The notes: generated by a model from the sequence alone, not told the origin. A DNA stretch of 64,000 bases from Deltaproteobacteria bacterium (GCA_020633895.1 JACKCT010000002.1:326055-390054); one strand, 5' to 3'; positions 16,211-53,854 are shown, counted from the first letter of the stretch. Made by a program: numbers and translations.

Positions 16211-16211
16211 G

Positions 16212-16284
16212 TGGTCAGGGACGGGATCGAACCGCCGACACCCGGATTTTCAGTCCAGTGCTCTACCAACTGAGCTACCTGACC
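16212..16284 (-). tRNA. tRNA-Phe (anticodon GAA), 73 nt, CCA not encoded
   Basis: The reverse complement GGUCAGGUAGCUCAGUUGGUAGAGCACUGGACUGAAAAUCCGGGUGUCGGCGGUUCGAUCCCGUCCCUGACCA folds as a canonical cloverleaf with a 7-bp acceptor, D-arm GCUC/GAGC, anticodon loop CUGAAAA, and T-loop GGUUCGAUCC. It closely parallels E. coli tRNA-Phe. Confidence 0.95.
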
Positions 16285-18688: not shown

Positions 18689-18743
18689 GACGATTTCTAT
18701 ATCATCGAATCGGCGGCCGTGACATACGCGTCCCGGGCGAATC

Positions 18744-20387: not shown

Positions 20388-21071
20388 ATGCGCGTCGCCG
20401 GGGTGATCCCCGCCCTCAACGAAGCCGCGTCCATCGGCGAGGTTCTACGCCAAATCCCGAAAGACCGTGTCGAACGGGTCGTCGTCGCCGACAACGGATC
20501 CACCGACGCCACGGCGCAAGTGGCTAGGGAGGGCGGGGCGATTGTGGTGTCGGAGCCGCGTCGAGGCTACGGACAGGCGTGCCTGGCGGCGCTGGATTAT
20601 CTGCGACAAAATGAGCCGCCGGACGTCGTCCTCTTTCTCGACGCCGACCTCTCCGACTTTCCCGAAGAGGCCCACCTGCTGCTCGACAAAATCACGGAAG
20701 GCTACGACCTGGTGATCGGCTCGCGGGTGCGTTTGGCGCGGAAAGACGCGCTGCTGCCCCAGGCCCGATTCGGCAATTGGCTTTCGACGCGCTTGGTTCG
20801 GTTATTTTATGGAGAGCGATTCACCGATTTGGGGCCGTTTCGCGCGATCCGGTGGGAGGCGTTGGAGCGCATCGCCATGGCGGACACCAACTTCGGCTGG
20901 ACCGTCGAGATGCAGGTCAAAGCCGCCAAACATGGGCTGCGTTGCGCGGAGGTGGACGTGCGTTACCGCCCCCGCCACGGTGACAAATCCAAAGTCACCG
21001 GCACCTTGCGCGGCACCGTCGGCGCGGGCACGAAGATTTTGTATGTGATTTTTCGCGAGTTGCTTTCGTGA
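20388..21071 (+). CDS. glycosyltransferase family 2, polyprenol-phosphate sugar synthase-like (DPM1/ArnC-like, soluble form)
   Basis: N-terminal VIPALNEA...VVVADNGSTD...LDADL (DxD) signature of GT2 polyprenyl-phosphate glycosyltransferases. Start ATG abuts the upstream stop (TAGATG). Confidence 0.8.
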   Translation: MRVAGVIPALNEAASIGEVLRQIPKDRVERVVVADNGSTDATAQVAREGGAIVVSEPRRGYGQACLAALDYLRQNEPPDVVLFLDADLSDFPEEAHLLLDKITEGYDLVIGSRVRLARKDALLPQARFGNWLSTRLVRLFYGERFTDLGPFRAIRWEALERIAMADTNFGWTVEMQVKAAKHGLRCAEVDVRYRPRHGDKSKVTGTLRGTVGAGTKILYVIFRELLS

Positions 21072-22159: not shown

Positions 22160-23992
<1,833 letters not shown>

Positions 23993-31363: not shown

Positions 31364-31537
31364 CGGTCGCGCGGCGGCCGCGACCGTTCTGAGCCGCGAC
31401 CCTATAGGGAGCGGGTTGGTCCAACCCGGCACAAATCCAAGTCGTATTTCGGGGAGGGGGAGTTCCCCCGCCCATTGTGATAGTGTCGAATGCTCGCGGT
31501 TTGCGCGGGCACATTGTCGGGGGATCGGAGGGGCTCG

Positions 31538-33408: not shown

Positions 33409-34104
33409 TTAGCCGACGCCGCCGGAGGTCTTGCGGTAGCCGATGTGACGCACGTCTTCGCCGCCCACCAGGAAGATGACCTGCTCGGCCATGTTCTCGG
33501 CGTGGTCGCCCATGCGCTCCAGGTATTTGGCGACGGATTGGACGTGAATGCCCCGCTCGACGAGTTGGGGGTCGGCGACCATCAATTCGAGCAGATCGGC
33601 GAAGATTTCGTCGTAGAGATCGTCGACCTCGTCATCCCGGTCGATGACATTATTGGCCAGTTGAGGATCGGTGTTGACCAGGGCGTCGATGGCGTCGCGC
33701 ACCATGGACTGCACCAACTCGCCCATCTTGGGGATGTCGTGGTAGGGCTTGAGGGGCTCCGCGGCGTTCAGGTCGATCGCCCGCTCGGCGATATTCACCG
33801 CCAGGTCGCCCACGCGCTCCAATTCGCCGACCATTTTGTGCGTCTGAAGCAGGAAGCGCAGGTCCACGCCCATCGGCTGCCGGCGCGCCAGAATGCGCCA
33901 GCACTGGTCGTCGATGGCCACTTCGTCGCCGTTGACGGCGGCGTCCTGCTTGATCACCTGGCGTGCGATGTCCGAGTCCCGGTCCACCAACGCCCGCATC
34001 GCGCCGTCGATCATCTCCTCCACGCGCCCGGCCATCAGCAGCAGGCGGTCCCGGAGGAGGCGGAGTTCTTCTTCGAAGGCACGATCGGTATGTTGAGCGG
34101 GCAT
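33409..34104 (-). CDS. phoU: phosphate signalling complex protein PhoU
   Basis: Two PhoU repeats (E/DxxxD motifs, e.g. ERVGDLAVNIAERA and ERMGDHAENMAEQV). Located downstream of pstB. Confidence 0.9.
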   Translation of the reverse strand: MPAQHTDRAFEEELRLLRDRLLLMAGRVEEMIDGAMRALVDRDSDIARQVIKQDAAVNGDEVAIDDQCWRILARRQPMGVDLRFLLQTHKMVGELERVGDLAVNIAERAIDLNAAEPLKPYHDIPKMGELVQSMVRDAIDALVNTDPQLANNVIDRDDEVDDLYDEIFADLLELMVADPQLVERGIHVQSVAKYLERMGDHAENMAEQVIFLVGGEDVRHIGYRKTSGGVG

Positions 34105-34225
34105 GGGCACCTCACTTAGCGCAAATGCGTGAACAAGATACAAGATGTAGTACCTTTGCATCTTGCCGTCCGGACAAAACTTAGTCCAGACTAAAAATCA
34201 TGATGCCACAAAATATCCGAAATGC

Positions 34226-35008
34226 CTAACCAAATTTTCCGGTGATGTATTCGTCGGTCTGCTGTTTGGTGGGTTTTGTGAAGATGCTGTCGGTATCGTT
34301 GAATTCGATCAGCTCGCCCATGAGGAAGAACGCGGTCCGATCGGACACCCGGGCGGCCTGCTGCATATTGTGCGTGACGATGACGATCGTGTAGTTCTCG
34401 CGCAGGCTGTGGATCAAGTCCTCGATGCGCGCCGTGGCGATGGGATCCAGGGCGGAGCAGGGCTCGTCCATGAGGATCACGTCCGGGTCCACGGCCAGCG
34501 CCCGGGCGATGCACAGCCGCTGTTGCTGCCCGCCGGACAGGCCCGATCCCAACTTGTTGAGTTCGTCCTTCACCTCGTCCCACAACGCCGCCTGGCGAAG
34601 CGCCCGCTCGACGATCTGCGCATCGTTGGATTTGCTGGAAGTCTTCGTCAGGCGAAGTCCGGCCAGCACGTTTTCGCGGATGGTCATCGTGGGGAAGGGG
34701 TTGGGCTTCTGGAAAACCATCCCCACCTTGCGACGCAGCCGGGCCGGGTCGACATTGGGGTGGTTGATGTCCTGCCCCTCGAGCACGATGCTGCCTTCCA
34801 CCCGGGCGCCGGGGACGATCTCGTGCATCCGGTTCAGGCAGCGGATGAAGGTGGACTTGCCGCAACCGGACGGGCCGATGATGGCCGTCACCCCGCCGGT
34901 GGGAATCTGCATTTCGATGCCCTTGAGCACCAAGGTCTTGCCGTACCAGGCTTTGAGGCCCGACACGGAAAACTGGGGATTATCGATGGGCGATTGCCGA
35001 AGGGGCAT
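34226..35008 (-). CDS. pstB: phosphate ABC transporter ATP-binding protein
   Basis: Walker [10 protein letters not shown]. Signature [14 protein letters not shown]. Walker B ILMDEP. Confidence 0.95.
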
Positions 35009-35012
35009 TCAA

Positions 35013-35861
35013 TCAACTCCGCCGCTGATATTTCTGACGCAAGTAAATCGCCAGCGCATTGAACATCAAAAGAATCGCCATCAGAACCATGATCCCCGCC
35101 GCCGCGTTGATGACGAATTCGGGCTGGGGCCTGGAGACCCAGTTGAAAATCTGGATCGGCAACGCGGTAAACGGCGACATGGGCCCGTCGGGCAGGAAGG
35201 TCACGTAGGTCAGGGCGCCGATCGCGATCAGGGGCGCGGTCTCGCCGATGGCGCGGGAGATGGCCAGGATCGAACCGGTCAGCATGCCGGGCAGGGCCAT
35301 GGGCACCACCACCTGGCGGATGGCCTGCCACTTGGTTGAGCCCAGGGCGTAGCAGCCTTCCCGCAGGCCGTTGGGCACGGTGGCCAGCGCCTCCCGGGAG
35401 GCGACGATGATGATCGGCAGGATCAGCAGCGCCAACGTCAGCGCCCCGGACATCAAGCTCTGGCCGAAATTGGCGAAACGCACAAAAATCTCCAAGCCCA
35501 GCAGGCCGTAGATGATCGACGGCACTCCCGCCAGATTGGCGATGTTCACCTCGATCAGGCGGGTGAGCCAGTTGTCGCCGCCGTATTCTTCCAGATAGAT
35601 CGCCGCGCCGATGCCCACCGGGACGGCGAACGCGCCGGTCAGGCCGATGAGGTAAATGCTGCCCACCAGGGCCGGTTTGATGCCCGCCAATTCCGCCTTG
35701 CGCGAAGGCAGGCTGGTCAGAAAACTCCACGTCAGGCGGCCGGCGCCGTCCATGACCACGTCGGCCAGCAGCACGAACAGCATCGCCAGCGGGACGAGCA
35801 CGGCGAACAGGCAAAGCCCGATAAACGCCTTCTCCCATTTTTCCACGCCGGTGCGATACAT
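35013..35861 (-). CDS. pstA: phosphate ABC transporter permease PstA
   Basis: Six-TM permease with EAA-like loop ([14 protein letters not shown]). Position follows E. coli pstSCAB order. Confidence 0.9.
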
Positions 35862-36800
35862 CTAGAGCTTCCCTCGGAATTTTCGCGCCAGCCGCTGGCT
35901 GAGCATGTTCATCGCCAGGGTCATCAAAAACAGCGACGCGCCGACCACGAAGATCGTTTTGTATTCCAACGTGCCGTGGGGCGTGTCGCCCATGGATACC
36001 TGCACGATGTACGCGGTCATGGTCTCGATGGGCACGCGGGGGTCCATGGTCAGGCGCGGCTGCTGGCCCGCGGCGATGGCCACGACCATCGTCTCGCCGA
36101 TGGCGCGGGAGATGGCCAGCGTCACCGACGCGGCGATGCCCGACAAGGCCGCGGGGATCACCACCCGCACAATCGTCGGCAAGCGCCGGGCGCCCAGGGC
36201 GTACGCCCCCTCCCGCAGGGCGCGGGGAACGGCGTAAATCGCGTCCTCGGACAGGGAGGCGATCATCGGCGTAATCATGACGCCCATGATGATGCCCGGA
36301 CTCAGGGCGTTAAATCCCGCCAGACCCGGGACGATCTTTTGCAGCAGGGGCGTGAGGAAAACCAAGGCGAAGTAGCCGTACACGATGGACGGAACGCCCG
36401 CCAGGATTTCCAGCATGGGTTTGAGAATCCGGCGCGCCCGCTCGTCGGCGAACTCGGACAGATAGATCGCCGAAAGCAAGCCGAAAGGCAGGGCCACCGC
36501 GATCGCCACCAGCGTGGTGAGCATGGTGCCCGCCACCAGCGGCCAGATGCCGAAATGCTTGTCGACGAACAGGGGGGTCCATTGGGTGTCGCCCAAAAAA
36601 CGGGAGATGGGCACTTCGCGGAAGAACGAAATCGTCTCGTAGGCCAGCACCAGGACGATGCCGATGGTCGTGAAGATCGACAGGACGCCGCACGCCCTCA
36701 GGACGATTTCGATCACACGCTCGGGCCACGGAGTCGCCGAACGTGTCAGATAACCGGCCGCCGGGGCGACCGGGCTAAACTCTGGGGAATTCGCGGCCAC
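35862..36800 (-). CDS. pstC: phosphate ABC transporter permease PstC
   Basis: Permease with EAA loop ([12 protein letters not shown]). Immediately downstream of pstS. Confidence 0.9.
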
Positions 36801-36838: not shown

Positions 36839-37969
36839 TTAGCCGGCGGAGCCTTCTTCGGTCTTGGGGGCCTCGGCCGCCGGAGCTTCTTCCGCCGTGC
36901 CCTCGGGGGCGCCCTCGGCCGCCTCGCCGGTGCCTTCCTTGGAGAGCAGCTCCTCGACCGTCACGCCCACCGTCGCGCCGCCGCCGGCGAAGACCGAGCC
37001 GGTGGTGCGGGACTCGAAGCGCGCCTTGGCCAACTCATAGGCTTTGTCCGGCAGCGGGATATAGCCCACCTCCTTGACCAGGCCCGGCGTGCTCAGATAG
37101 TGCGTCACGAACTCGGTCACGATGGGCCGGGTGTCGGCTTCCTTCTTGTTGACGTAGATGAAGATCGGCCGGGACAAGGGTTGGTATGTGCCGTCGCCGA
37201 CGGATTCCAGGGAGGGCGGAATGGCCTTGGCGTCCTTGTCCATCTTGATCGACGCCACGTTCAGGCGCTCGGTGTTTTCCGCGTAGTAGGCGAAGCCGAA
37301 AAAGCCCAGGCCGTATTTGTCCGTCGCCACGCCCTGCACCAGGACGTTGTCGTCCTCGCTGGCCGTGAAGTCGCCCCGGCTGGAGTGCTCCGTGCCCACG
37401 ATGGCCTGCGTGAAGTAGTCATAGGTGCCCGAGTCCACGCCGGGACCGAACAGATGCAGTTCCTCTTTCGGCCAGCCGTCGCGCACGTCCGACCATTTCA
37501 TGACCTTGCCCTGGGCCTCGGGCTCCCACATCTTCTTGAGTTCCTCGACGGTCATCTCGCCGGCCCAGTCGTTCTCCTTGTTGAGCACGACCGCGATGCC
37601 GTCATAGGCCACGGGGATCTCGACATATTCCACGCCCGCCGCCTTGCAGTCGGCCATTTCCGATTCCTTGATGGGACGGGAGGCGTCCGAGATCGCGGTC
37701 TCGGCCCGGCAGAATTTCTTGAATCCGCCGCCCGTGCCCGAAACGCCGATGGTGATGCGCACCTCCGGGTGCTTGGCGCGGAAGGCCTCGGCCATGGCTT
37801 CGGAGATCGGATAGACCGTGGAGGAACCGTCGATGGCGATGGCTTGTGCTTGGGCCGGCGGGGGCGCGCCCGGCTCTCCCCCGGGGGAGGAAGCGTTTTG
37901 CGTGCAGGCCGACAGCAGCAAAGCCGTCAGCATGGCGGTCATCACGGCAAGGAGGGGGCGCGTGTTCAC
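36839..37969 (-). CDS. pstS: phosphate ABC transporter substrate-binding lipoprotein PstS with a low-complexity Ala/Glu/Pro-rich C-terminal extension
   Basis: GTG start at 37969 with GAGG 6 nt upstream. Lipobox LLLSAC. PBP fold motifs (GSSTVYP, SGTGGG). The ORF-track N-terminal extension is rejected. Confidence 0.85.
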
Positions 37970-38055
37970 AGTCACCTCGCTCAAGCTTGGGAGATTTGTT
38001 GAATGAGTCAAAGCGTTGCCAAAACGGAACGATAGGAAATCACGATGGCCCGAGA

Positions 38056-38102
38056 CTGTCAATCGTCGAATATCTCGTCATATTTTCGTCACATAGACGT
38101 CA
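38056..38102. promoter_or_regulatory. candidate Pho-box array: CGTC(G/A) repeats with 11-bp periodicity, plus one TGTCA 8 bp upstream
   Basis: cTGTCAatcgTCGTCGaatatcTCGTCAtatttTCGTCAcatagaCGTCA. Four repeats start at 38065, 38076, 38087 and 38098, spaced exactly 11 bp. The array lies 87-133 bp upstream of the pstS start and overlaps the last codons of the upstream glycosyltransferase gene. Confidence 0.5.
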
Positions 38103-39810
38103 AATTGGGGCCATAAGCCGACGGCGGCGAGAACAGCAGGACATTCGGCGTCCGCAGCAGCAGATCGTACCCCGCGGCCTCGTCGGCGACCGAACGCATC
38201 GACCGGGTTTCCTTGGCGAAATCGCTTTCCGGGCCCAGGCCGCCCCGCACCGCGTTGATGTCCGAGAGAATCAGCCCCCGCAAGGTGGGGTCGAACTTTC
38301 CGGCCTCAATGCGCAGATGCACCCAATCGACGTATTGGCGTTCGTAGTCCGCCAGGGCCGCCCTGGGCTTCAAGAACCGGACATTCGGTTCGAGCAGATT
38401 GACCTCGAAGCGGAAAAGGGCCCACGTGGCGTCGACGCCGGTGATCGCCACCGGGTAGATTTTGCGCACCCCTCGCCGGGCATGGAGCGCGGCGACGAAG
38501 CGACGAGCGTCCTCCTTGGCCCAGTTGACCTCCGTGACCGGCGGCCGCAAGACGACGTCGTTCGCGTTCTGCACATACGCCAGATAGGGGTCTTCCCAAT
38601 CCCAGGTGATGGGTTCGGTCGTTATGGCCCTTGTCGAACGGGCCAAACTCGTCGCCGCCAGCGCCAACCCCAACGCGATGAACACCAAGCGCCGGTACTT
38701 GCCCCGCATTGATGAGAACGCCACGCCGACCAGGGGCGCCGCGCCGACCACCGCCGGGAAAATATAGTAGGTGTTTTTCTTGGCGCTGATCGAAACCAGC
38801 GCGACCAGGCCGAAGGTCCAGAAGACGAGCATGTATCGGGATTTGGCGCGGGTGACGAACAAGAGGACGGCGCCGGACAGGGCGGCCAGGGCCAGGGGCC
38901 GACCCCAGTGATACGCGATGAGAAAATGGGGAACCGCCAGCGGCGCACCGGGGCCGGATTTGGCGCCCATGGCGGTGCGTTCGTAGTCGGACAGGCCGTC
39001 GAAGATGTAGGCCATGTAGTCCAGGCTGCCGTTGTCCCGGGCGACGTAATAAAACGCAACGGCGGCCGCGGCCACGAACAGAGCAACGCGCGTCGCCTCC
39101 AGGGTCAGGCGTCGAGGCGAGCGCAACGTGAGACGGCGCGGATCGTCGTCATCCCGTCCGAACCACGAATCCAGCACCGTCCCGGCCAGGGCCGACCCCA
39201 CGGCCAATGTGACCATGACCCCGTTGGACGGCACGAAGGCGTCGTGCGTGGCGCGCCCGGCGATCAGCCCCACCAGCGCCCCCATCCAAAAGCGGCGAAG
39301 TCCGTCCGAAAAATAGATGCAGACCACCGCCAGCGTCGCCGCCGTGATATTGGTCAGGTGGTCGTCGAATGTCGTCGCTGAAGCGAGCACCACCGGCATC
39401 GCGGCCGCCGCGACCGCGCCGATCGCCCCGGCCCACGGCCCGCCGATCCGCCACGCCAGCAGCGTGACCAGCACCATCCAGATCAAGGCGAGCAGCGTCT
39501 GGAAGTGCATCATGCCGATGTACGACCGGCCGAATAGATCGATCGCCCGGCCGGCGAAGACGAGGGTCAGCGGGTGATCCCGATAGGCAAAATCCCGATG
39601 CCATTGGGCGTCGCCGTGGTCGTGATAGACGATCACCGCTTGCAGATCCTCGTGGGGCGACATGCGGATGACCGGCTCGCTTTCGTGATTCCACCAAAAC
39701 AGCAACGCCGTCATCCCGCCGATGGCCAACACCACGATCAGGGCGCACGCCGCCGTCGACAGAGCCTCGCCGTTCTCCTTGAGCGCCTTCATCCTGATGT
39801 TAATTTTCAT
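38089..39810 (-). CDS. polytopic membrane GT-C-type glycosyltransferase-like protein (ArnT/PMT/GT39-83-like), paralog 1
   Basis: MKINIRMK start at 39810. About 12 TM helices followed by a ~190-aa C-terminal soluble domain. Conserved blocks shared with paralog 2 (YHDHGD, LFGRSY, SxKKNxYYxF..V..AP..G...S..RGK). Confidence 0.6.
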   Translation of the reverse strand: MKINIRMKALKENGEALSTAACALIVVLAIGGMTALLFWWNHESEPVIRMSPHEDLQAVIVYHDHGDAQWHRDFAYRDHPLTLVFAGRAIDLFGRSYIGMMHFQTLLALIWMVLVTLLAWRIGGPWAGAIGAVAAAAMPVVLASATTFDDHLTNITAATLAVVCIYFSDGLRRFWMGALVGLIAGRATHDAFVPSNGVMVTLAVGSALAGTVLDSWFGRDDDDPRRLTLRSPRRLTLEATRVALFVAAAAVAFYYVARDNGSLDYMAYIFDGLSDYERTAMGAKSGPGAPLAVPHFLIAYHWGRPLALAALSGAVLLFVTRAKSRYMLVFWTFGLVALVSISAKKNTYYIFPAVVGAAPLVGVAFSSMRGKYRRLVFIALGLALAATSLARSTRAITTEPITWDWEDPYLAYVQNANDVVLRPPVTEVNWAKEDARRFVAALHARRGVRKIYPVAITGVDATWALFRFEVNLLEPNVRFLKPRAALADYERQYVDWVHLRIEAGKFDPTLRGLILSDINAVRGGLGPESDFAKETRSMRSVADEAAGYDLLLRTPNVLLFSPPSAYGPNLTSM

Positions 39811-41518
39811 GATGGAAATCCGCGTCGGGCAGGGGGGCGTAGACGGCCATGTGGGGCGTGACCAGCAGGGGCGCCGCCCCTTGGGCCAATTCGGACAGTC
39901 GCCGCAGCGTCGCCTCCCGCTGAGCCAGGTCGGGGGCGTAGTCCAGGTTGGAAGCCACGGTGCGCACATGGAAGGCGAACAAGTCGGACAGGGGCGGAAT
40001 ATTCGGTGTCGGCAATTCGCGCGGGCTGACCCAATAGGTCGCGGAAAAATCCGCGTCGGCCGGAGCGTATTCGATCGGTACAAAACGCAGATTCGGCGCC
40101 GCCAGGCACGCCCGGAATCGGAACAGACCCAGGCCCGCGTTCGTCCCGACGATGCCTACTTGCGCTTCGGCGTCGGAGGGCGTGTTGCACAGGACGGTTT
40201 TGACCAACGCCGGCGCCGCGTCCTTGGTCCAATCCCGGTAGCGATCCGGGGGACGCAGCACTACGTCCGGCGAATTCTGGAGGTAGCGAATCGCCAGTTC
40301 GCCCCGCGCGGGCCCGATGGGTTTTTGCGTCAGGCCGTAGGCGGCGCGGCCGATCCCCGCCAGGGCCAGCAGGCACGCCGCCCCCAGGACGATCGAGCGG
40401 ATCTTGCCCCGCCACGCGCTCAGGCCGATCCCCGCGATCGGCGCGGCGGCCACGGCGGCGGAGAAGGTGTAGAAGCTGTTTTTCTTGGGGCTGAACGAGG
40501 CGACGACGATCAATCCCAGCAGCCACAAGGCGAGCATGTATCGCTTGGGAACGCGCCGAATGAACAGGCTCGCCAGCCCGGCCAGGGTCGCCAGGGCGAG
40601 GGGCACGCCCCAGTGGTACTCGACGATCATCGCCGGGATGCCCAGCAGGCTCAGGGGTTCCCGCCAAGGCGAAACCACGCCGAACTCGGGAGCCGCCGCG
40701 CCCTGGAAGATGTAGGCGAAGTAGCCGTAGCCGCCTTGCCGATGGGCCCCGATCAGAAATCCGACGCCCAGGGCCGTCGCGGCGCCCAGGTAGGGCAACG
40801 AGCGACGCACCCGTTGGCCGACGGCGGTGGAGCGCTCGAAGATCGGCGGCCCGGAGCGGTCGATGATCCACGTTTCGAACGCCAGCCCGATCGCGGCCAG
40901 GGCAATCGACGCGGCGGCCATGAATCCCAACGACGGGTAGAAGCCGTCGGCCAGCAGCCGTCCCGCGAGCAGCCCCGCGACCAGGGCGGGCAAGGGGCGA
41001 CGCAGGCCGTCGGAATAGCGCAGCAGCAGGATCGCGATCGCCGCGCCCAGGATGTGCGTGAGGTGGTCGTCGTAGGTCAGCGCGCCGCAGAGCAGCAGCG
41101 GCATCCCCGCCGCGAACAGCGCCGTCAGCATCGCCGCGATCGGCCCCGCCAGCGAATACGCGAGCCCGGCCAGCAGCGCCATCGTCGCCGCCGCCAGCAG
41201 GATCTGGCCGAGCATCAGCCCCGCGTAACTTCGCCCGAAGAGGGTAAGCGACGCGTCGGCGATGACCAGCGGCAGGGGATGGGACTGGGGCAGCCGATGC
41301 AGATGTCGACCCTCGGCGCCGTGGTCGTGATATTGCAGCGTGAGGTAGAGATCGTCGTGGGGACGGTCCAGCAGCAGCGGGTCGCTCGCGTTGACCCACC
41401 ACCAAAGCAGCACGCCCACGCCGCCGATGGCCGCCGCGCCGACGACCAACGCGACCGCCGTCCGCCACGAAGCGCGGTTGGACGAAGATCCCTCATGCGG
41501 GGCGGACATCGCCGTCAC
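39800..41518 (-). CDS. polytopic membrane GT-C-type glycosyltransferase-like protein, paralog 2 (tandem duplicate)
   Basis: Clearly paralogous to 38089-39810 along its full length. Its stop overlaps the paralog-1 start by 11 nt (ATGAAAATTAA). Immediately downstream of phoR on the same strand. Confidence 0.6.
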   Translation of the reverse strand: MTAMSAPHEGSSSNRASWRTAVALVVGAAAIGGVGVLLWWWVNASDPLLLDRPHDDLYLTLQYHDHGAEGRHLHRLPQSHPLPLVIADASLTLFGRSYAGLMLGQILLAAATMALLAGLAYSLAGPIAAMLTALFAAGMPLLLCGALTYDDHLTHILGAAIAILLLRYSDGLRRPLPALVAGLLAGRLLADGFYPSLGFMAAASIALAAIGLAFETWIIDRSGPPIFERSTAVGQRVRRSLPYLGAATALGVGFLIGAHRQGGYGYFAYIFQGAAAPEFGVVSPWREPLSLLGIPAMIVEYHWGVPLALATLAGLASLFIRRVPKRYMLALWLLGLIVVASFSPKKNSFYTFSAAVAAAPIAGIGLSAWRGKIRSIVLGAACLLALAGIGRAAYGLTQKPIGPARGELAIRYLQNSPDVVLRPPDRYRDWTKDAAPALVKTVLCNTPSDAEAQVGIVGTNAGLGLFRFRACLAAPNLRFVPIEYAPADADFSATYWVSPRELPTPNIPPLSDLFAFHVRTVASNLDYAPDLAQREATLRRLSELAQGAAPLLVTPHMAVYAPLPDADFHHEN

Positions 41519-41536
41519 CGCCGATCAAAAAGAAGT

Positions 41537-43312
41537 TTAGGCCACACCGCCTAATTTAGAAGCGGCCCCCGGAAGGATCAACCAGAACGACGAGCCGTGG
41601 GGTTCGACGGGCGCGACGCCCACCTGGCCCTCCATCGCCTCGGCGAGGTTTTTGACGATGGCCAGCCCCAGGCCCGTGCCGCCCAGATCGCGGGAACGGC
41701 CCGGATCGACGCGGTAAAAACGCTCGAAAACCCGGGGTTGGTGCTTGGGGGGGATGCCCGGGCCGTTGTCGGCCACCTCGATGCGGACCCGGTCGCCCAG
41801 AAGCTCGGCGCTCACCTGGATGCGGCCGCCTTCGGGCGTATATTTCACGGCATTGTCCAGATAGTTGAACAGGATCTGGTCCAGGGCCTTGGGATCGGCC
41901 TGGGCGATCAGGTTTTCATCGCAACGCACCACGATCTTTTGGCGCTTGTCGGCGGCTTTGCGTTCGATGGCTTCGGCGGCCTTGCGCACCGCCGGGGCGA
42001 CGGGCATGACCTGCGGTTCGATGCGCTGACGTCCCGCCTCGATGCGCGACAGATCCAGCAAATCGGCGATGAGTTGGTCCAGGCGCTTGGCGTTGCGGGC
42101 GATGGCTTCCACAAACTTCTGGGCCGCCGTGGGGTGCTCGATGGCGCCTTCCTGCAACGATTCGGCGCTGCCGGCGATGATGCCCACCGGCGTGCGCAAC
42201 TCGTGGGAGACATTGGCGACGAAATCACGCCGGATCGTTTCCAACCGACGCAATTCGGACACATCGTGCAGCACGACGACACTGTCCACCCCGGCGCGCC
42301 GGGCCGAGATCTGGGCCATGATCCGACGGGGCGCACGGCCGGTGGAATCGAACTCGACCGACTGGGCCTCGTCGGCGGCCTGGTGCTCGAACAACTCGGC
42401 CAGAGCCGGAATGCGCACCGCCTCCAGCAGCGTCTTGCCCACCGGCGAGACGGTCAGGCCCAACAGGCGCATCGCCGCCTGGTTGACCACCGTGATGCGC
42501 TTGTTTTCGTTCAGGGCGATGACGCCCTCGCTCATGCCGTTGAGCACGGCCATGAATCGGTCCCGCTCCAGCGCCAACTCGGCGACCTGCATCTCGAGGG
42601 CTTCGGCCAGGGCGTTGATCGACCCGGCCAGACCGCCCAACTCGTCGGAGGAGACCACATTGACGCGCAGGCCCTTTTCGCCGGTGGCGATGGCCTGGGT
42701 CTTTTCGATGAGGTGGCGCACGGTGCGGTAGATAAGCTGAGAGGACAGGCCGCTCATGAAGATCGCCAGCACCAGTCCCAGGGCCCCCGCCGCCAGGATC
42801 GAGAACCGCAGCTTGCGGGCCAGTTGGTCCACTTCGGACAGGGGCATGGCGACGCGGATGAGCAAATTTCGGCCGGCCGCCTGGGCGGGAATGGCGACGT
42901 ATTCCATCTGGGCGCCGAGTTCGGGGCTGTAGCGGATGGCGATGCCGTAGCCGTCGTTGCGGGCGCCGACGAGTTCTTCCCGGTCCAGGGATTCCCGTGC
43001 AAAATCGGACGGGGACAGCCCGCGCGTGGAATCACCCACGACCTGTCCTTGATCGGTGAGCACCGTCACCTGGGCGCCCATCGAATGGCCCAGGGCATCG
43101 GCCAGATCGTCCACGGCGGCCCCGTCGGCGTCGGCGGGCAGGCGTTGCAACGCGTCGCCGACCACCTTGGCGAAACGCACCAGGTCGTCTTCAATGCGCG
43201 ATTCGAGCCAGTTGCGAAGGGTAATTTCCAGGTAGACGCCCGAGGGGAGGGCGACCGCGAAAATCACGATGACGGAGACGAGGAAAAGTTTTCCGCGAAC
43301 GCCCAGCCTCAA
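41537..43312 (-). CDS. phoR: phosphate regulon sensor histidine kinase
   Basis: Two TMs and HAMP. PAS domain. H-box [10 protein letters not shown]. HATPase G-boxes. Start overlaps the phoB stop. Confidence 0.9.
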
Positions 43313-44013
43313 GCCGATTCCTCAACCGCCTTGTCTTGAAAGCGATATCCCACGCCGCGGATGGTTTCGATATAAGCCCCGGCCGCGCCCAGCTTTTGGC
43401 GCAGTCGCTTGACGTGCGTATCGACGGTGCGGGTCGTGACCTCGGCCTGGATGCCCCACACGCCGTCCAGGAGTTGATCCCGTGTCTGCACCCGGCCCTT
43501 GCGTTTGAGCAGGGTGGTCAGAAGGCGAAACTCCATCGCGGTGAGCATCAGTTCCTTGTCGTCGACCCAGGTGCGATGGCCCTGCTCGTCGACCTTGAGG
43601 CGGCCGAAGGTCATCACGTCTTCCGCGCTTTCCTCCGGACGGCCGCGACGCAAAATCGCCCGGATGCGCAACAGCAGTTCGCGTATGGAAAACGGCTTGA
43701 CCACGTAGTCGTCGGCGCCCACCTCAAAGCCCACCACCCGGTCGATTTCCTCGCCCTTGGCGGTGGTCATGATGATGGGGATGGAGCGGGTGCGGGCGTC
43801 TTCCCGGATGCGCCGGCAGATTTCGGTGCCCGAAATGTCCGGAAGCATGATGTCCAGGAGGACCAGGTCCGGCAGCGGCTCCTCGGCCGCCAGTTCGAGC
43901 CCCTTGGCCCCGGTGAGCGCGGTGCGCGTCTGGTAGCCTTCCCGCTGGAGGTTGTACTCCAGGATGGCCACCATGTCCTCTTCGTCTTCAACGATTAAAA
44001 TCAGTGCCGACAT
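43309..44013 (-). CDS. phoB: phosphate regulon response regulator (OmpR/PhoB family)
   Basis: Receiver ILIVEDEEDM...DLVLLDIMLPDISG plus winged-helix Trans_reg_C (RVQTRDQLLDGVWG...VDTHVKRLRQKL). Confidence 0.9.
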   Translation of the reverse strand: MSALILIVEDEEDMVAILEYNLQREGYQTRTALTGAKGLELAAEEPLPDLVLLDIMLPDISGTEICRRIREDARTRSIPIIMTTAKGEEIDRVVGFEVGADDYVVKPFSIRELLLRIRAILRRGRPEESAEDVMTFGRLKVDEQGHRTWVDDKELMLTAMEFRLLTTLLKRKGRVQTRDQLLDGVWGIQAEVTTRTVDTHVKRLRQKLGAAGAYIETIRGVGYRFQDKAVEESA

Positions 44014-44302
44014 GCCGCGTTATTGCCTTGTCCTTGTGGCGTTATCGTGGCGCGTTTTTGAACGGCCCGCAACATTGTAAACCCCATGAAGGATTTCACT
44101 CGAAAAGTCGCCCGGCCGCTCCCCTCACCGATGCGTACCCTAGCAGAAAACCGTCACGGCAACACGCACCCTGCGTGAGCGAGGCCGCGAAATTCGTCGG
44201 CGGGCCCCCTAGTCCTGGTCGGCGGCCTTGTCGTATATTGGCCGTTCTTGTTTTTGCCCGGCGCCCGACAGCGCGCCGACGGGCCTTGCACGAGGCGGTG
44301 CC

Positions 44303-44773
44303 ATGCTGACGATCCAGGATCTGCTCAACGACAAGCGCGTCTTTTTGGACGTGCCGGCGGCCGACAAGCTGGCGGCGCTCAAGACCGTCGTGCATCTGCT
44401 GGCCGAAGCCGGGCAGATCAACGCCGACGCCGAGGCGGACCTCTATCGCCGCCTGGACGAGCGCGAGCAGCTCTCCACCACCGCCCTGGGCGAGGGCATC
44501 GCCATTCCCCACGCCTATTTCGAGCAGATCCCCGAACCGATGCTGATTTTCGCCCGCCTGTCCAAGGGAGTGGATTTCGACGCCCCGGACGACCGGCCGG
44601 TGGACAAGATTTTTATGCTGCTGGGCGGCAAACGGGACCACACGCAGCATCTGATGATCATGGCGCGGCTCTCGCGCATGCTTAAAGACACGGGATTTCG
44701 CCAAACGTTGGACACCGCCGGGCAGCCCGGCGCGGTCTTGGATGCCGTTCGGGACGTGGAATCCCGGCACTAG
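44303..44773 (+). CDS. PTS EIIA type-2 domain protein (PtsN/EIIA-Ntr-like)
   Basis: Conserved phospho-His loop TALGEGIAIPHAY and typical size of about 155 aa. ATG at 44303 (MLTIQDLL) preferred. Confidence 0.75.
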   Translation: MLTIQDLLNDKRVFLDVPAADKLAALKTVVHLLAEAGQINADAEADLYRRLDEREQLSTTALGEGIAIPHAYFEQIPEPMLIFARLSKGVDFDAPDDRPVDKIFMLLGGKRDHTQHLMIMARLSRMLKDTGFRQTLDTAGQPGAVLDAVRDVESRH

Positions 44774-44781
44774 GAGACGCG

Positions 44782-45123
44782 GTGCAGGCGGTTTTTATCA
44801 TCATCAGCGAGGCCGATCGGCTTCAGGACGTGCTCACCGGGCTTTTGGAAGTGGGCATCACGACGGCGACGATCATCGAAAGCCAGGGCATGGGCCGGGC
44901 GGTCATGGACAATCTGTCGATTTTCGCCGGATTCCGCGACCTGTGGAGCGGCAACCTGAGCTACAACCACACCCTGTTCACCGTGGTCGACGACGAGAAG
45001 GTCGAGGAGCTCATCCCCGTGGTCAAGGACATCCTCGCCCCCGGCGATTCGCCCAGCAAGGGCGTGTTGTTCACGCTGCCGGTCGCCCGCCTGGTCAAAT
45101 TCACGCCGTCCAAGGAAGACTAG
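44782..45123 (+). CDS. PII-like signal-transduction protein (GlnB-fold; SbtB/DUF190-type arrangement)
   Basis: Fold blocks align with PII: AVFIIIS / ADRLQDVLTGLLEVGITTATIIESQGMG / TLFTVVDDEKVEELIPVVKDIL / GKGVLFTLPVARLV. Compare PII IEAIIKP / [27 protein letters not shown] / GDGKIFVFDVARVIRIRTGE. Confidence 0.7.
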   Translation: MQAVFIIISEADRLQDVLTGLLEVGITTATIIESQGMGRAVMDNLSIFAGFRDLWSGNLSYNHTLFTVVDDEKVEELIPVVKDILAPGDSPSKGVLFTLPVARLVKFTPSKED

Positions 45124-45127
45124 CTCC

Positions 45128-46321
45128 ATGAAATCCCTGGTGGGCCTGGCGATCATCGCGCTGCTGGCGGTCTTCGGATCCCGGTTGCTCGAACGCCACT
45201 GGCACATCCCCGGGCCTCTCAAATCGGTCTTCGGCGGCGGGTTGATCTACCTGGTCGCCGGCTATGTGCTCGGACCGTCCATGCTCGGCTACGTCACCGG
45301 CGAGGTGACGGTGCATCTGTCGCCGGTGGTGACGATCGGCCTGTTCTGGATCGCCTTTCTTTTCGGCATCAACCTCAAATGGCGCGATCTGCGTCGGCTG
45401 CATAACACCCTTTTTCTGTTCGTATTCGGACAGGCCTTCGCGGTCGTCGCGGTGGTGGGCGTCGCGTTCTGGTTTTTGCTGCCCAGCGTTTTCGGCGAGA
45501 TCCCCCTGCGCGAACTGACCGCGGCGGTGCTGACGTTGGCGGCGTGCGCCTCGGGCACGGGGCAGGCGACGCTCTTCCGCCTCAAGATGAATCGAAATTT
45601 TCGCGGTCCCACGGCCCAAACGGCGTCGGTGGCGGCGACCCTGGACGATCTGCCGGCGATCATCGTGACCGGTCTGGTGACGTTTTTCCTGCACGAGGCC
45701 ACCCCCGCCGAGACGCACCCGCCGGGCTTTGCGTGGCTCGGATTGGCGGTGTCCATCGGCGGCCTGGGAGGCTGGGTGGTGGAACTGCTGCTGCGCCGGG
45801 CGGACAACGATCAGGCGCGGCTGCTGCTCATCCTCGGATGCATGTCGGTGGGCGGCGGCATCTGCGCCTATCTATCGATCGCGCCGGTCTTCGTGGGCGC
45901 CATCATGGGCGTGGTTTACGTCAACCTGAGCCCCCGGGACGACAGAGTCTTTGAAATCGTCACCCGCTCCGAATCGACGCTCTATGTCGTCTTCCTCATC
46001 CTGGTGGGCACCATCGTCAAACTCCAGCTCGAACAGTTGGCGATCCTGGGCGCGGTGTTCGTGGGAGTGCGCATCCTGGGCAAGGTGGGCGGCGGCGCGC
46101 TGTTCCAGCACTGGCTGCGGCTGCCGCAAAACCCCTCGCCGGCGGTGGGGCTGGCGTTGATCGCCCAAGGCGGCTTGGCGATTGCGCTGGCGATCCAATA
46201 CGCCCGCGTCTTCCCCTCGGCCCTGGCGGACACGGTGGTCACGGTCGTGATCGCGTCGGTCGTCGTTAACGCCGTCTACGCCGAGCCCTTGGCCCTGCGA
46301 GCCGCGAGGGCGAAGCGATGA
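45128..46321 (+). CDS. cation:proton antiporter (CPA/Na+-H+ exchanger family), 397 aa
   Basis: About 12 TM helices with Gly-rich helices typical of the Na_H_Exchanger fold. Immediately follows the PII-like gene. Confidence 0.75.
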   Translation: MKSLVGLAIIALLAVFGSRLLERHWHIPGPLKSVFGGGLIYLVAGYVLGPSMLGYVTGEVTVHLSPVVTIGLFWIAFLFGINLKWRDLRRLHNTLFLFVFGQAFAVVAVVGVAFWFLLPSVFGEIPLRELTAAVLTLAACASGTGQATLFRLKMNRNFRGPTAQTASVAATLDDLPAIIVTGLVTFFLHEATPAETHPPGFAWLGLAVSIGGLGGWVVELLLRRADNDQARLLLILGCMSVGGGICAYLSIAPVFVGAIMGVVYVNLSPRDDRVFEIVTRSESTLYVVFLILVGTIVKLQLEQLAILGAVFVGVRILGKVGGGALFQHWLRLPQNPSPAVGLALIAQGGLAIALAIQYARVFPSALADTVVTVVIASVVVNAVYAEPLALRAARAKR

Positions 46322-47673
46322 GGGTGCATCTGCTGGTGGCCGCGTCGCTGGTGACGATGATCTGGCTGCTGAAATTCCTACAGATCGGCCAGTTCTCCAC
46401 CGTGGTCGACGAGGCGGCGCTGGCGTTCGGCTTCATCCTGCTGGTGGCGTTCATCGTCGGCAAGGCCGTCAAGCGTGTCGGGCTGCCCGGCCTGACCGGC
46501 TATCTGTTCACCGGCATGATCTTCGGCCCCTACGGCATTGGGGTGCTACATCCCTCGCTGCAGTTCGTCACCGCGGGCGCGCTGGAGGAATTGAAGGTCT
46601 TTCAGAGCATCGCGCTGGGCCTGATCGCGTTTTCCGCCGGCGGCGAGATGCGCCTGGAGTCGGTCAAAAAGCGCCTGCGAGGCATCCTCTACGTCGCCAG
46701 CGTCCCGTCGTTGTTCGAATTTCTCTGGGTCTTTGCCGCGACGTGGTTCGCCTCGCCCTATGTGGATTTCGGCCACGAACTGACCACCGCCGGGCGCGTG
46801 GGCGTGGCGCTGATATTCGGCGTGATCGCCATTTCCGTTTCGCCCGCGGCAACCATCGCCATCGTGCTGGAATACAGGGCCAAGGGGCCGATGACGACGA
46901 TGGTGCTCGGCTCGGTGGTGGTCAAGGACGTGCTGGTCATTATCGGTTTTTCCATAACGCTGGTGGCGTCCAAGATCCTGATCCTGGGCAACACCGACTG
47001 GGATATCACGATCGTGGGCATCGTGGCCTGGGAGGTGTTCGGCTCGTTGGGTTTGGGCCTGCTGCTGGGGTACATCCTGGCCCAGTACATGCGCTACGTG
47101 GGGCGCGAAATGCCGCTGATCGTGCTGGCGCTGTCGTTTTTGGCGGTGGAATTGGCGCGGGATTTCCATCTCTCGGGCCTGCTGCTGCTGCTTTCGGCCG
47201 GTTTTTACGTCGAGAACTATTCGGAAGAGGGCGACCGCCTGGTGCAGGCGATCGACCGCTACTCGCTGCCGGTGCTGGTGCTGTTTTTCACCATGTCCGG
47301 CGCGAAGGTGCATCTGACGGATTTGCTGCCGGTGCTGCCGTTCGTGTTGCTTTACGTGGGCGTGCGCGTCTTCGCGGTCTGGGCGGGGGTGCTGGTGGCC
47401 AACAACATGGCCGGGTCCTCAACGCACATCAAAAAATACGCCTGGACGGGCCTTATCTCCCAAGCGGGGGTGACGTTGGGCCTGGCGGCGCTGCTGTCCC
47501 GGGAGTTTCCCGAAATCGGCGGCACGGTGTCGACGATGATCGTCGCGGCGGTGGCGGTCAACGAAATCGTCGGCCCGATCCTTTTCCGCGAGGGCCTGAA
47601 GCGGGCCGGGGAGGTGGACGGCACGGACACGGACGGCGACGAAGCGCCGGCGGCTCACGGCGGCGGGCATTGA
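46318..47673 (+). CDS. cation:proton antiporter (CPA family), 451 aa
   Basis: Polytopic. Start overlaps the upstream stop (ATGA). FSAGGEM-type motif. Confidence 0.75.
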   Translation: MRVHLLVAASLVTMIWLLKFLQIGQFSTVVDEAALAFGFILLVAFIVGKAVKRVGLPGLTGYLFTGMIFGPYGIGVLHPSLQFVTAGALEELKVFQSIALGLIAFSAGGEMRLESVKKRLRGILYVASVPSLFEFLWVFAATWFASPYVDFGHELTTAGRVGVALIFGVIAISVSPAATIAIVLEYRAKGPMTTMVLGSVVVKDVLVIIGFSITLVASKILILGNTDWDITIVGIVAWEVFGSLGLGLLLGYILAQYMRYVGREMPLIVLALSFLAVELARDFHLSGLLLLLSAGFYVENYSEEGDRLVQAIDRYSLPVLVLFFTMSGAKVHLTDLLPVLPFVLLYVGVRVFAVWAGVLVANNMAGSSTHIKKYAWTGLISQAGVTLGLAALLSREFPEIGGTVSTMIVAAVAVNEIVGPILFREGLKRAGEVDGTDTDGDEAPAAHGGGH

Positions 47674-51501: not shown

Positions 51502-51503
51502 CG

Positions 51504-52637: not shown

Positions 52638-52642
52638 CATAA

Positions 52643-53719: not shown

Positions 53720-53738
53720 ATTTGGCCCATGAACGGTG

Positions 53739-53835
53739 TGTCATCCCGAACGCAGGGAGGGACCTCTCGTACGTTGTTCGTGATCGTGTCTGGAAGGGAA
53801 GCGTACGAGAGATCCTTCGCGTTGCTCAGGATGAC
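53739..53835. repeat. REP/MITE-like palindromic element (family C copy: GTCATCCCGAACGCAGGGAGGGACCTCTCGTACG ... CGTACGAGAGATCCTTCGCGTTGCTCAGGATGAC)
   Basis: 34-bp imperfect inverted arms share the GTCATCC(T/C)GA terminus with 33267-33368. Located between convergent genes. Confidence 0.65.
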
Positions 53836-53854
53836 AGACCCACTTCCATAACTC

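What the first reader, a model, noticed from the sequence alone, without database searches (positions are those of the whole stretch)
38089..41518. Tandem paralogous GT-C (ArnT/PMT-like) membrane glycosyltransferases inserted inside the Pho regulon core, between phoBR and pstSCAB-phoU
All nine genes from 44013 down to 33409 are on the minus strand with tiny or overlapping junctions. phoB/phoR overlap by 4 nt. The second paralog starts 19 bp after phoR. The two paralogs overlap by 11 nt (CATCATGAAAATTAA: stop of paralog 2 inside the start of paralog 1). Then come pstS, pstC, pstA, pstB and phoU. Canonical pho loci do not contain glycosyltransferases. Two recently duplicated 12-TM GT-C enzymes, each with a ~190-aa periplasmic domain, co-transcribed with phoBR, imply a phosphate-starvation-induced glycosylation step. 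One candidate is lipid A or phospholipid headgroup modification with a polyprenol-P-sugar donor (an ArnC/DPM1-like GT2 is at 20388-21071). The other is O-glycosylation of the Thr-rich exported proteins above. Either would be an unusual coupling of Pi sensing to envelope glycosylation.
Basis: partly seen in the sequence, partly recalled or inferred. Interest (0 to 1): 0.75.

Follow-up and report, generated by a model that had tools for sequence, protein, structure and literature searches.

The report
Two GT-C-fold genes inside pho operon
Two old, divergent copies of a rare, unnamed membrane protein with the fold of lipid-linked-sugar (GT-C) glycosyltransferases sit between the phosphate regulator genes phoBR and the phosphate transporter genes pstSCAB-phoU of an uncultured bacterium; this suggests, but does not prove, that envelope glycosylation is tied to phosphate sensing there.

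Summary
The layout is real. On the minus strand the order is phoB, phoR, two paralogous ~570-aa polytopic genes, pstS, pstC, pstA, pstB, phoU. An independent assembly (12 mismatches in 4.35 kb) shows the same junctions.

The paralogs are not recent: they are 37% identical. They pass no Pfam or NCBIfam threshold (PMT_2 17.8 and 21.5 bits against a cut-off of 26.1).

The family is rare: 58 hits among 1.84 billion representative proteins, none named. Its conserved polar residues are placed on the periplasmic side by a topology read from the model's helices and the loop charges. The Asp of the first periplasmic loop, found in all solved GT-C enzymes, is not conserved; the conserved motif there is Arg-Pro-His.

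Elsewhere the family occurs as single genes or as order-conserved tandem arrays of 6 to at least 7 paralogs, never in a pho locus.

Co-transcription with phoBR is likely (18–27 nt gap, no convincing terminator). Induction by phosphate starvation is unproven. The only Pho-box-like repeats lie after the paralogs, in front of pstS. The acceptor is unknown.

The parts
43309..44013 (-). phoB-type response regulator; first gene of the cluster
   Evidence: Pfam Response_reg plus Trans_reg_C. Best NCBIfam hit TIGR02154 PhoB, 256.6 bits (cut-off 296). Divergent from a plus-strand PTS-EIIA gene.
41537..43312 (-). phoR-type histidine kinase (HAMP-PAS-HisKA-HATPase); overlaps phoB by 4 nt
   Evidence: Best NCBIfam hits are PnpS (348 bits) and phoR_proteo (294 bits), both below their cut-offs. 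Assigned from these hits plus adjacency to pstSCAB-phoU.
39800..41518 (-). Upstream GT-C-fold paralog (572 aa from GTG 41518; 569 aa from ATG 41509)
38089..39810 (-). Downstream GT-C-fold paralog (573 aa); its start overlaps the upstream paralog's stop by 11 nt
   Evidence: 37% identical to the upstream paralog over 536 aa. Family HMM score 564 bits. PMT_2 17.8 bits. Motifs SPHED, FDDHL, KKNTYY. Named 'hypothetical protein H6684_03940, MAG Deltaproteobacteria bacterium' by NCBI.
38056..38102 (.). Candidate Pho box. On the plus strand: CTGTCA, CGTCG, then three CGTCA exactly 11 bp apart with AT-rich spacers. Overlaps the stop codon of the downstream paralog and lies in the 119-nt gap before pstS.
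   Evidence: TGACGA-N5-TGACGA matches exactly once in 64 kb; the three-unit pattern matches once against 0.15 expected. Resemblance to the E. coli CTGTCAT-N4 repeat is from my own knowledge. Orientation relative to pstS is inverted compared with E. coli. Binding is not tested.
36839..37969 (-). pstS, phosphate-binding lipoprotein with a Ser/Pro/Ala-rich N-terminal linker and an Ala/Glu/Pro/Thr-rich C-terminal tail
   Evidence: TIGR02136 287.7 bits, above cut-off. PBP_like_2. Sequence with LLSAC lipobox. Start taken from the independent gene call.
35862..36800 (-). pstC permease
   Evidence: BPD_transp_1.
35013..35861 (-). pstA permease
   Evidence: BPD_transp_1.
34226..35008 (-). pstB ATPase
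   Evidence: ABC_tran.
33409..34161 (-). phoU
   Evidence: Two PhoU domains, E 1.9e-50.
20388..21071 (+). GT2 resembling polyprenyl-phosphate hexose synthases; a possible supplier of a lipid-linked sugar donor (tentative, 17 kb away)
   Evidence: Best NCBIfam hits are AglJ, dolichyl-phosphate hexose transferase, PpgS and ArnC, all below cut-off. Pfam Glycos_transf_2. Its nearer neighbour is a GT87-like GT-C gene at 17390-18895.

Best explanation
The two genes encode divergent members of a rare, uncharacterised branch of the GT-C (class A) superfamily. These are membrane enzymes that take a sugar from a polyprenyl-phosphate-sugar donor and transfer it to an acceptor on the periplasmic face.

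Shown:
- the GT-C fold;
- a bridged profile link to ArnT/PMT_2-type proteins, including alignment of the second-loop Asp and the Lys...Tyr motif;
- tight, translationally coupled placement directly after phoR.

Inferred from a topology I read off the model's helices and the loop charges:
- about 11 membrane spans, N-terminus inside, C-terminal alpha/beta domain of about 175 aa outside;
- all strongly conserved polar residues (Arg49-Pro-His51, Asp147-Asp148-His149, Tyr266, Lys342-Lys343-Asn344, Tyr347) on the periplasmic side.

Inferred from context:
- They are transcribed with phoBR, and possibly through into pstSCAB-phoU.
- They act as a pair, either as a hetero-oligomer or in consecutive steps. 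The evidence is the translational coupling here and the order-conserved multi-paralog arrays elsewhere.
- They glycosylate an envelope acceptor. My ranking is LPS core or lipid A, or another periplasm-exposed glycolipid or glycan, first. The adjacent PstS lipoprotein, with its disordered Ser/Thr/Pro/Ala-rich ends, comes second by analogy with Pmt and PstS in Streptomyces.

Linkage to the phosphate response is plausible but not demonstrated. It appears specific to this lineage, not a property of the family.
For: Fold:
- AlphaFold with 25 homologues gives pLDDT 85.7, pTM 0.90.
- The Foldseek top 38 hits are all GT-C.

Sequence link:
- 7 of 25 close and 8 of 25 distant family hits match PMT_2, best E 3.4e-17.
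- hhalign of the family against a profile of E. coli ArnT plus PMT_2-like distant hits gives Prob 99.9, E 2.5e-33 over 375 columns. FDDHL aligns with ArnT VLDPF, and KKNxYY with ArnT KGKLPTY.

Active-site side: the conserved polar residues lie in loops that the model's helix order and the positively charged loops SDGLRR, RRVPKR and WRGK place in the periplasm. This topology is my reading, not a tool output.

Coupling:
- 18-27 nt gap after phoR, and an 11-nt overlap between the paralogs.
- The hairpin at the phoR stop is no more stable than shuffled sequence, z 0.52.
- No sigma-70 consensus site on the minus strand in the interval.

The same junctions appear in an independent assembly.

Pair or array behaviour: arrays of 6 to at least 7 paralogs with overlapping junctions, in the same paralog order in three genomes.

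Donor supply: a polyprenyl-P-hexose-synthase-like GT2 is in the window.

Precedents: Pmt glycosylates PstS (PMC6593405). PhoB-controlled WaaH modifies the LPS core (bioRxiv 10.1101/536201).
Against: - No curated model is passed. The PDB sequence-profile search found nothing.
- No Pho-box-like element was found upstream of phoB. The only candidate lies after the paralogs and is inverted relative to the E. coli orientation.
- None of the six distinct homologue loci with usable flanks is in a pho locus.
- 38 PhoR-like loci (517 kb) carry no such gene.
- The acceptor is pure inference.
- The GT2 candidate donor synthase is 17 kb away and sits beside a different GT-C-like gene.
Confidence: 0.55

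Rival explanations
1. They are true ArnT or PMT orthologues. In that case they add aminoarabinose or a similar sugar to lipid A phosphates, or O-mannosylate Ser/Thr-rich secreted proteins, as a phosphate-starvation response.
Against: PMT_2 is below threshold. PF02366 (PMT) and the NCBIfam ArnT model give no hit. hhalign against E. coli ArnT alone gives E 0.054 over 42 columns. No arnBCADEF genes are nearby. ALG12 scores higher than either ArnT or Pmt4, so the fold does not discriminate. The first-loop Asp/Glu pair of ArnT and PMT is replaced by Arg-Pro-His in the family. The Thr-rich protein lies next to a different GT-C-like gene, GT87-like, at 17390-18895.
Confidence: 0.2
2. The position is incidental. 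An old lineage-specific insertion placed the pair between phoR and pstS, and it is expressed at the basal level of phoBR or from its own promoter. It has no functional tie to phosphate.
For: The family is not pho-linked anywhere else. No Pho box was found upstream of phoB. pstS has its own 119-nt upstream region with the candidate PhoB sites, so the transporter need not share a transcript with the pair.
Against: The gap after phoR is very short, with no convincing terminator or promoter. Composition is the same as the neighbours. The arrangement is kept in a second strain-level assembly. Genes held inside a regulator-transporter cluster on one strand are usually co-regulated (general knowledge).
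Confidence: 0.25
3. They are non-catalytic GT-C-fold membrane proteins, comparable to PIGU/GAB1. They would bind a lipid or glycan ligand and act as accessory or scaffold partners, for example for PhoR or the Pst transporter.
Against: Periplasm-side Asp-Asp-His, Lys-Lys-Asn and Tyr residues are strongly conserved. The Asp and the Lys...Tyr motif align with ArnT's second-loop Asp and lipid-phosphate-binding region. Both window proteins do carry acidic residues next to the conserved His (HDD and HED). Catalytic enzymes match far better than PIGU.
Confidence: 0.12

Closest known systems
[quoted passage not shown]
   Different: Sequence similarity is detectable only through intermediates. The first-loop Asp-Glu (E. 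coli PDE) is replaced by Arg-Pro-His. There is no arn operon. About 11 spans by my helix count, against 13 for ArnT (PMC7801869). ArnT is controlled by PmrAB/PhoPQ (own knowledge), not by the phosphate sensor PhoBR.
Bacterial protein O-mannosyltransferase Pmt (GT39) with Ppm1, which glycosylates PstS in Streptomyces coelicolor
   Same: A GT-C enzyme using a polyprenyl-phosphate sugar. Its best-known substrate is the phosphate-starvation-induced lipoprotein PstS (PMC6593405). Here the pair lies immediately upstream of a pstS encoding a lipoprotein with Ser/Thr/Pro/Ala-rich ends.
   Different: No PF02366 hit. pmt is not in the pho operon in Streptomyces. The organism here is a diderm 'Deltaproteobacteria' MAG. 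PstS as acceptor is only an analogy.
Eukaryotic lumenal mannosyltransferases ALG12, ALG9 and ALG3
   Different: 11% identity. Eukaryotic ER enzymes. No genomic clustering. Different acceptor (Dol-PP-oligosaccharide).
Tandem GT-C paralogs such as mycobacterial EmbC-EmbA-EmbB, and the heterodimer Pmt1-Pmt2
   Same: Adjacent paralogous GT-C genes whose products work as homo- or heterodimers (the EmbA-EmbB and Pmt1-Pmt2 structures are among the hits).
PhoB/PhoP-controlled envelope glycosylation: WaaH (GT2, glucuronic acid on the LPS core), Agt/Pgt glycolipid synthases (GT4), B. subtilis tua operon
   Same: Phosphate sensing linked to a phosphorus-free sugar decoration of the envelope (bioRxiv 10.1101/536201; PMC5193443).
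   Different: Those enzymes are cytoplasm-facing GT-A/GT-B types using nucleotide sugars, encoded away from phoBR/pst. Here it is periplasm-facing GT-C proteins inside the pho cluster, and regulation is unproven.

Membership tests
GT-C superfamily, class A (ArnT/PMT/STT3/ALG9-12 type) | Polytopic fold: TM1, a first outer loop with two short helices, a conserved TM2-7 module, and a C-terminal extracytoplasmic domain | tested here: met
GT-C superfamily, class A (ArnT/PMT/STT3/ALG9-12 type) | Conserved Asp (often Asp-Asp or Asp-Glu) in the TM1-TM2 loop, the catalytic or metal/acceptor-binding residue (PMC7801869) | tested here: not met
   No acidic column reaches 70% conservation in that loop across 25 family members. 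The conserved motif is Arg49-Pro50-His51. The two window proteins have HDD and HED, so an acidic residue is available locally. Structural equivalence could not be checked because no coordinates or structural alignments are returned.
GT-C superfamily, class A (ArnT/PMT/STT3/ALG9-12 type) | Acidic residue(s) in the second outer loop (my recollection: ArnT D158, PglB D154/D156) | tested here: met
   Asp147 in 24 of 25 and Asp148 in 20 of 25 members. Aligned to the Asp of E. coli ArnT VLDPF by hhalign.
GT-C superfamily, class A (ArnT/PMT/STT3/ALG9-12 type) | Basic and Tyr residues at the outer membrane interface that bind the polyprenyl phosphate | tested here: inconclusive
   Lys342 (24/25), Lys343 and Tyr347 (25/25) are conserved and align with ArnT KGKLPTY. 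Ligand binding is not testable here.
GT-C superfamily, class A (ArnT/PMT/STT3/ALG9-12 type) | Glycosyl transfer from a polyprenyl-phosphate-linked sugar | not testable with these tools
   A candidate donor synthase (GT2, 20388-21071) is present. No biochemical data.
Pfam PMT_2 (PF13231) / ArnT-like COG1807 | Score at or above the curated gathering threshold (26.1 bits) | tested here: not met
   17.8 and 21.5 bits. Only 7 of 25 close relatives give any hit at E <= 0.01.
ArnT proper (GT83) | NCBIfam/PGAP ArnT model hit and arnBCADTEF context | tested here: not met
   No NCBIfam family at E <= 0.1. No arn genes in the window. hhalign to E. coli ArnT alone gives E 0.054.
Protein O-mannosyltransferase PMT (GT39, PF02366) | PF02366 match and a first-loop Asp-Glu motif | tested here: not met
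   No PF02366 hit for either protein. The Asp-Glu motif is absent from the family.
Pho regulon member (PhoB-activated gene) | Pho box in the promoter that drives the gene | tested here: inconclusive
   No repeat of the candidate motif in the 289-bp region upstream of phoB. The candidate boxes lie downstream of the pair, at 38056-38102, in inverted orientation. The PhoB motif of this lineage is unknown.
Pho regulon member (PhoB-activated gene) | Induction at low phosphate that depends on PhoB | not testable with these tools
   No expression data. Co-transcription with phoBR is inferred from the 18-27 nt spacing and the lack of a convincing terminator.

The most novel reading that the evidence does not exclude
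A previously unrecognised GT-C family uses a His-centred (Arg-Pro-His) first-loop site instead of the universal Asp. It normally works as a fixed series or complex of 6-7 paralogs. In this lineage it has been reduced to a pair and wired into the phosphate-starvation operon. There it glycosylates either the PstS lipoprotein encoded next door or dephosphorylated LPS, which would be a direct, operon-level coupling of phosphate sensing to periplasmic glycosylation.
Probability: 0.12. Interest if true: 0.7.

Novelty: new variant of a known kind. Interest (0 to 1): 0.45.

Why it matters
If the pair is phosphate-regulated and active, it would be the first case known to me of periplasm-facing, lipid-linked-sugar glycosyltransferases encoded inside a phoBR-pstSCAB-phoU cluster. 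It would extend phosphorus-sparing envelope remodelling beyond the known cytoplasmic GT2 and GT4 enzymes.

Independently of the pho link, the family itself is of interest. It has only 58 representatives among 1.84 billion proteins and no annotation. It lacks the conserved first-loop Asp. It forms order-conserved arrays of 6 to at least 7 paralogs. These features make it a clean target for structural and enzymological work on how GT-C catalysis can vary.

The evidence for the physiological link comes from a single uncultured lineage, which limits the weight it can carry.

Tried and rejected
- The word-indexed homologue searches returned only self hits, three times including the profile query. 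They were probably swamped by Ala-rich words. The exhaustive HMMER scan was needed.
- AlphaFold with only the two paralogs was useless, pLDDT 35.
- PDB sequence and profile searches gave no meaningful hit.
- A GTDB scan with paralog-derived peptide patterns found no relative.
- PhoR-based scans of GTDB genomes and JGI metagenomes aimed to find close relatives and test whether phoR abuts pstS without the insert. The best hits were only 38% identical, so synteny in relatives could not be tested.
- The exact-sequence lookup for the NCBI copy of the downstream paralog found nothing on record.
- The afdb50 fold library was not available.
- hhalign against E. coli ArnT alone was insignificant.
- The terminator-like hairpin at the phoR stop was rejected as a convincing terminator after folding, z 0.52.
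- ORFs 44096-44770 and 44770-45222 on the minus strand were rejected as genes. Their GC3 of about 0.67 compares with 0.82 for the plus-strand EIIA gene.
- The histidine kinases next to homologues in L002 and L004 are generic, not PhoR-specific.
- Rfam found no regulatory RNA in the cluster.


Full report
**1. Observation**

The region holds nine co-directional minus-strand genes:
- phoB 43309-44013
- phoR 41537-43312, overlapping phoB by 4 nt
- two long polytopic ORFs, 39800-41518 and 38089-39810
- pstS 36839-37969
- pstC 35862-36800
- pstA 35013-35861
- pstB 34226-35008
- phoU 33409-34161

The regulator and kinase score best against PhoB and PhoR/PnpS models, though below the strict equivalog cut-offs. 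PstS passes its model, and PhoU has two PhoU domains.

The 11-nt overlap between the two long ORFs (ATGAAAATTAA) is as described. The gap after phoR is 18 nt to a GTG or 27 nt to the ATG chosen by an independent gene call.

pstS most likely starts at GTG 37969. This gives a lipoprotein signal peptide ending in LLSAC, with a GAGG ribosome-binding site upstream. It leaves a 119-nt intergenic region.

The cluster starts at phoB. The minus-strand ORFs further up have non-coding GC3 and overlie a plus-strand PTS-EIIA gene, ORF 44228-44773.

An independent Logan assembly (SRR12358675) matches window 37332-41684 with 12 mismatches. It spans both junctions of the pair, so the arrangement is not an assembly artefact. 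GC3 (0.84-0.86) is the same as in the neighbours.

NCBI names the downstream protein 'hypothetical protein H6684_03940' from a MAG labelled Deltaproteobacteria bacterium, on a 518-kb contig.

**2. What the two proteins are**

They are 37% identical over 536 residues, so this is an old duplication. In a tree with 23 relatives they are each other's closest relatives.

Curated libraries do not place them. PMT_2 scores 17.8 and 21.5 bits against a threshold of 26.1. NCBIfam gives nothing. PDB sequence and profile searches give nothing meaningful.

An exhaustive HMMER scan of 1.84 billion representative proteins found only 58 hits at E <= 1e-3, and 14 at E <= 1e-30. All the members I looked up are unnamed or 'hypothetical' and sit in tiny clusters.

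With 25 of these as an alignment, AlphaFold gave a confident model (pLDDT 85.7, pTM 0.90). The two-sequence attempt had failed.

| Search | Result |
|---|---|
| Foldseek vs PDB | top 38 matches all GT-C enzymes |

More distant sequence hits bridge the family to Pfam PMT_2 (8 of 25, best E 3.4e-17). A profile built from those plus E. coli ArnT aligns with the family at Prob 99.9, E 2.5e-33 over 375 columns.

The family is therefore a divergent branch of the ArnT/PMT_2-type GT-C superfamily. It is not ArnT or PMT itself.

**3. Anatomy and the catalytic question**

I read a topology from the model's helix order and the positively charged loops SDGLRR, RRVPKR and WRGK. It has about 11 spans, with the N-terminus inside and a C-terminal alpha/beta domain of about 175 aa outside. 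No tool returned this topology.

Residues conserved in at least 70% of 25 members include Arg49-Pro50-His51, Pro78, Tyr95, Gln102, Pro137, Asp147-Asp148-His149, Tyr266, Lys342-Lys343-Asn344, Tyr347 and Pro421.

On that topology, all the polar ones lie at the periplasmic face, as expected for a GT-C active site.

In the hhalign alignment, FDDHL falls on the Asp of E. coli ArnT VLDPF, and KKNxYY falls on ArnT KGKLPTY.

One defining feature is missing. All solved GT-C/PMT-clan enzymes carry an Asp in the TM1-TM2 loop, for example ArnT D55/E56 and Pmt1 D77/E78 (PMC7801869). E. coli ArnT has PDE at that place. This family has Arg-Pro-His with no conserved acidic neighbour, and this segment did not align with ArnT.

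**4. Genomic behaviour of the family**

Six distinct homologue loci had usable flanks. Two further lookups returned short contigs of 2.3 and 2.9 kb whose flanking genes were not searched against Pfam.

- Three loci carry single copies (L002, L004, L030).
- Three carry tandem arrays with overlapping junctions: L032 with 6 paralogs, L031 with at least 7, and L005 (plus its near-duplicate L006) with at least 6.
- Every array ORF scores strongly against the family HMM.
- The order of paralog types is the same in the three array genomes. Orthologues are 74-80% identical (L005/L031) or 35-46% identical (against L032), compared with about 30% between neighbours in an array.
- This argues for distinct, non-redundant roles, either as consecutive steps or as a multi-subunit assembly.

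None of these loci is a pho locus. The nearest hints are a PIN-PhoH gene after the L032 array and a phosphodiesterase about 3 kb from the L002 copy.

The window contains no further family member. None of 38 PhoR-like loci (517 kb) fetched for other reasons contains a family or PMT_2-like gene.

No close relatives of this organism were found by paralog- or PhoR-based scans of GTDB genomes or JGI metagenomes; the best PhoR hit was 38% identical. Whether the synteny is conserved in relatives therefore cannot be tested.

**5. Regulation**

Between phoR and the upstream paralog there is no sigma-70 consensus site. There is only a weak hairpin, no more stable than shuffled controls, z 0.52. Co-transcription with phoBR is therefore likely.

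The 119-nt gap before pstS holds a striking repeat cluster at 38056-38102:
- three exact TGACG units on the minus strand (CGTCA on the plus strand), 11 bp apart, with AT-rich spacers;
- two degenerate units in addition;
- the two-unit pattern is unique in the window;
- the three-unit pattern is found once against 0.15 expected.

From my own knowledge, it resembles the E. coli Pho box (CTGTCAT-N4 direct repeats). Read in the E. coli orientation, however, it points away from pstS, antisense to the downstream paralog. No comparable repeat lies in the 289 bp upstream of phoB.

The paralogs are thus probably expressed with the regulators, and possibly as part of one long operon. Whether that transcript is phosphate-induced is unknown.

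**6. Mechanism proposed**

- Shown: the GT-C fold, the bridged homology to ArnT/PMT_2-type proteins, and tight operonic placement after phoR.
- Inferred: about 11 spans with a periplasm-facing conserved site; use of a polyprenyl-phosphate-sugar donor; action as a pair; an envelope acceptor.

A polyprenyl-P-hexose-synthase-like GT2 is at 20388-21071. It sits beside a different, GT87-like GT-C gene at 17390-18895.

Acceptor candidates:
1. LPS core, lipid A or another periplasm-exposed glycolipid or glycan. This is by analogy with ArnT and with PhoB-controlled LPS modification by WaaH (bioRxiv 10.1101/536201).
2. The PstS lipoprotein encoded next door. It has a Ser/Pro/Ala-rich linker after the lipobox and an unusual Ala/Glu/Pro/Thr-rich C-terminal tail. 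The analogy is with S. coelicolor, where phosphate-induced PstS is heavily O-glycosylated by the GT-C enzyme Pmt (PMC6593405).

Nothing here discriminates between these two. The known phosphorus-sparing glycolipid synthases are cytoplasmic GT4 enzymes (PMC5193443).

**7. Comparison, novelty and verdict**

- GT-C fold: yes.
- ArnT or PMT membership: no.
- Recent duplication: no.
- Phosphate induction: unproven.

This is a new, rare family-level variant of a known enzyme kind. It has an atypical first-loop motif and a tendency to form ordered paralog arrays, and in one uncultured lineage it lies inside the pho cluster.

I score interest at 0.45. A specialist would find it a worthwhile lead, but the physiological claim rests on gene order in a single lineage.

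Noticed in passing
window 14346-16148 (+), with tRNA-Phe at 16211-16284 (-): Secreted protein with a signal peptide, no Pfam hit, and a C-terminal mucin-like run of about 70 Thr/Ser residues followed by a poly-Asp tail. It lies in a lower-GC stretch (0.587) next to a tRNA-Phe gene, so it may be part of an island and is a likely O-glycosylation substrate.
   Followed up: partly
window 17390-21071: A second glycosylation cluster. It has a GT87-like GT-C membrane protein (17390-18895, minus strand, 24.5 bits against a cut-off of 25), a cellulose-synthase/PgaC-like processive GT2 (18744-20387) and a polyprenyl-P-hexose-synthase-like GT2 (20388-21071). glmS follows at 22160-23992.
   Followed up: partly
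window 36839-37969 (-): PstS is a lipoprotein whose ends extend beyond the region matched by the PstS model. The N-terminal linker is [20 protein letters not shown]. The C-terminus carries a low-complexity tail rich in Ala, Glu, Pro and Thr.
   Followed up: partly
window 38056-38102: The Pho-box-like repeats are inverted relative to the E. coli orientation with respect to pstS. They overlap the stop codon of the downstream paralog. They could drive an antisense transcript or modulate read-through.
   Followed up: partly
window 51468-56145 and 31490-33244: Genes suggestive of glycerolipid turnover or remodelling: gpsA-like G3P dehydrogenase (51468-52637), APP1-like phosphatidate phosphatase (52643-53719), TuaH-like GT4 (54988-56145, minus strand), and glpD-like FAD G3P dehydrogenase convergent with phoU (31490-33244).
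   Followed up: no
L005 1-9641, L031 1-11336, L032 582-10468: Tandem arrays of 6 to at least 7 paralogs of the same family, with overlapping junctions and the same paralog order in three genomes. The L005 and L031 arrays are flanked by a divergent Crp-family regulator. The L032 array is followed by a PIN-PhoH gene. All three arrays lie near a contig end.
   Followed up: partly
window 44228-47673 (+): Divergent from phoB: a PTS-EIIA (ptsN-like) gene, a 113-aa ORF (44782-45123), and two consecutive Na+/H+-exchanger-family genes that overlap by 4 nt (45128-46321 and 46318-47673).
   Followed up: no
L004 2319-7742: A single-copy family member follows a generic histidine kinase and precedes a 784-aa protein with no Pfam hit, a carbamoyltransferase and an SxtJ-like gene.
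   Followed up: no
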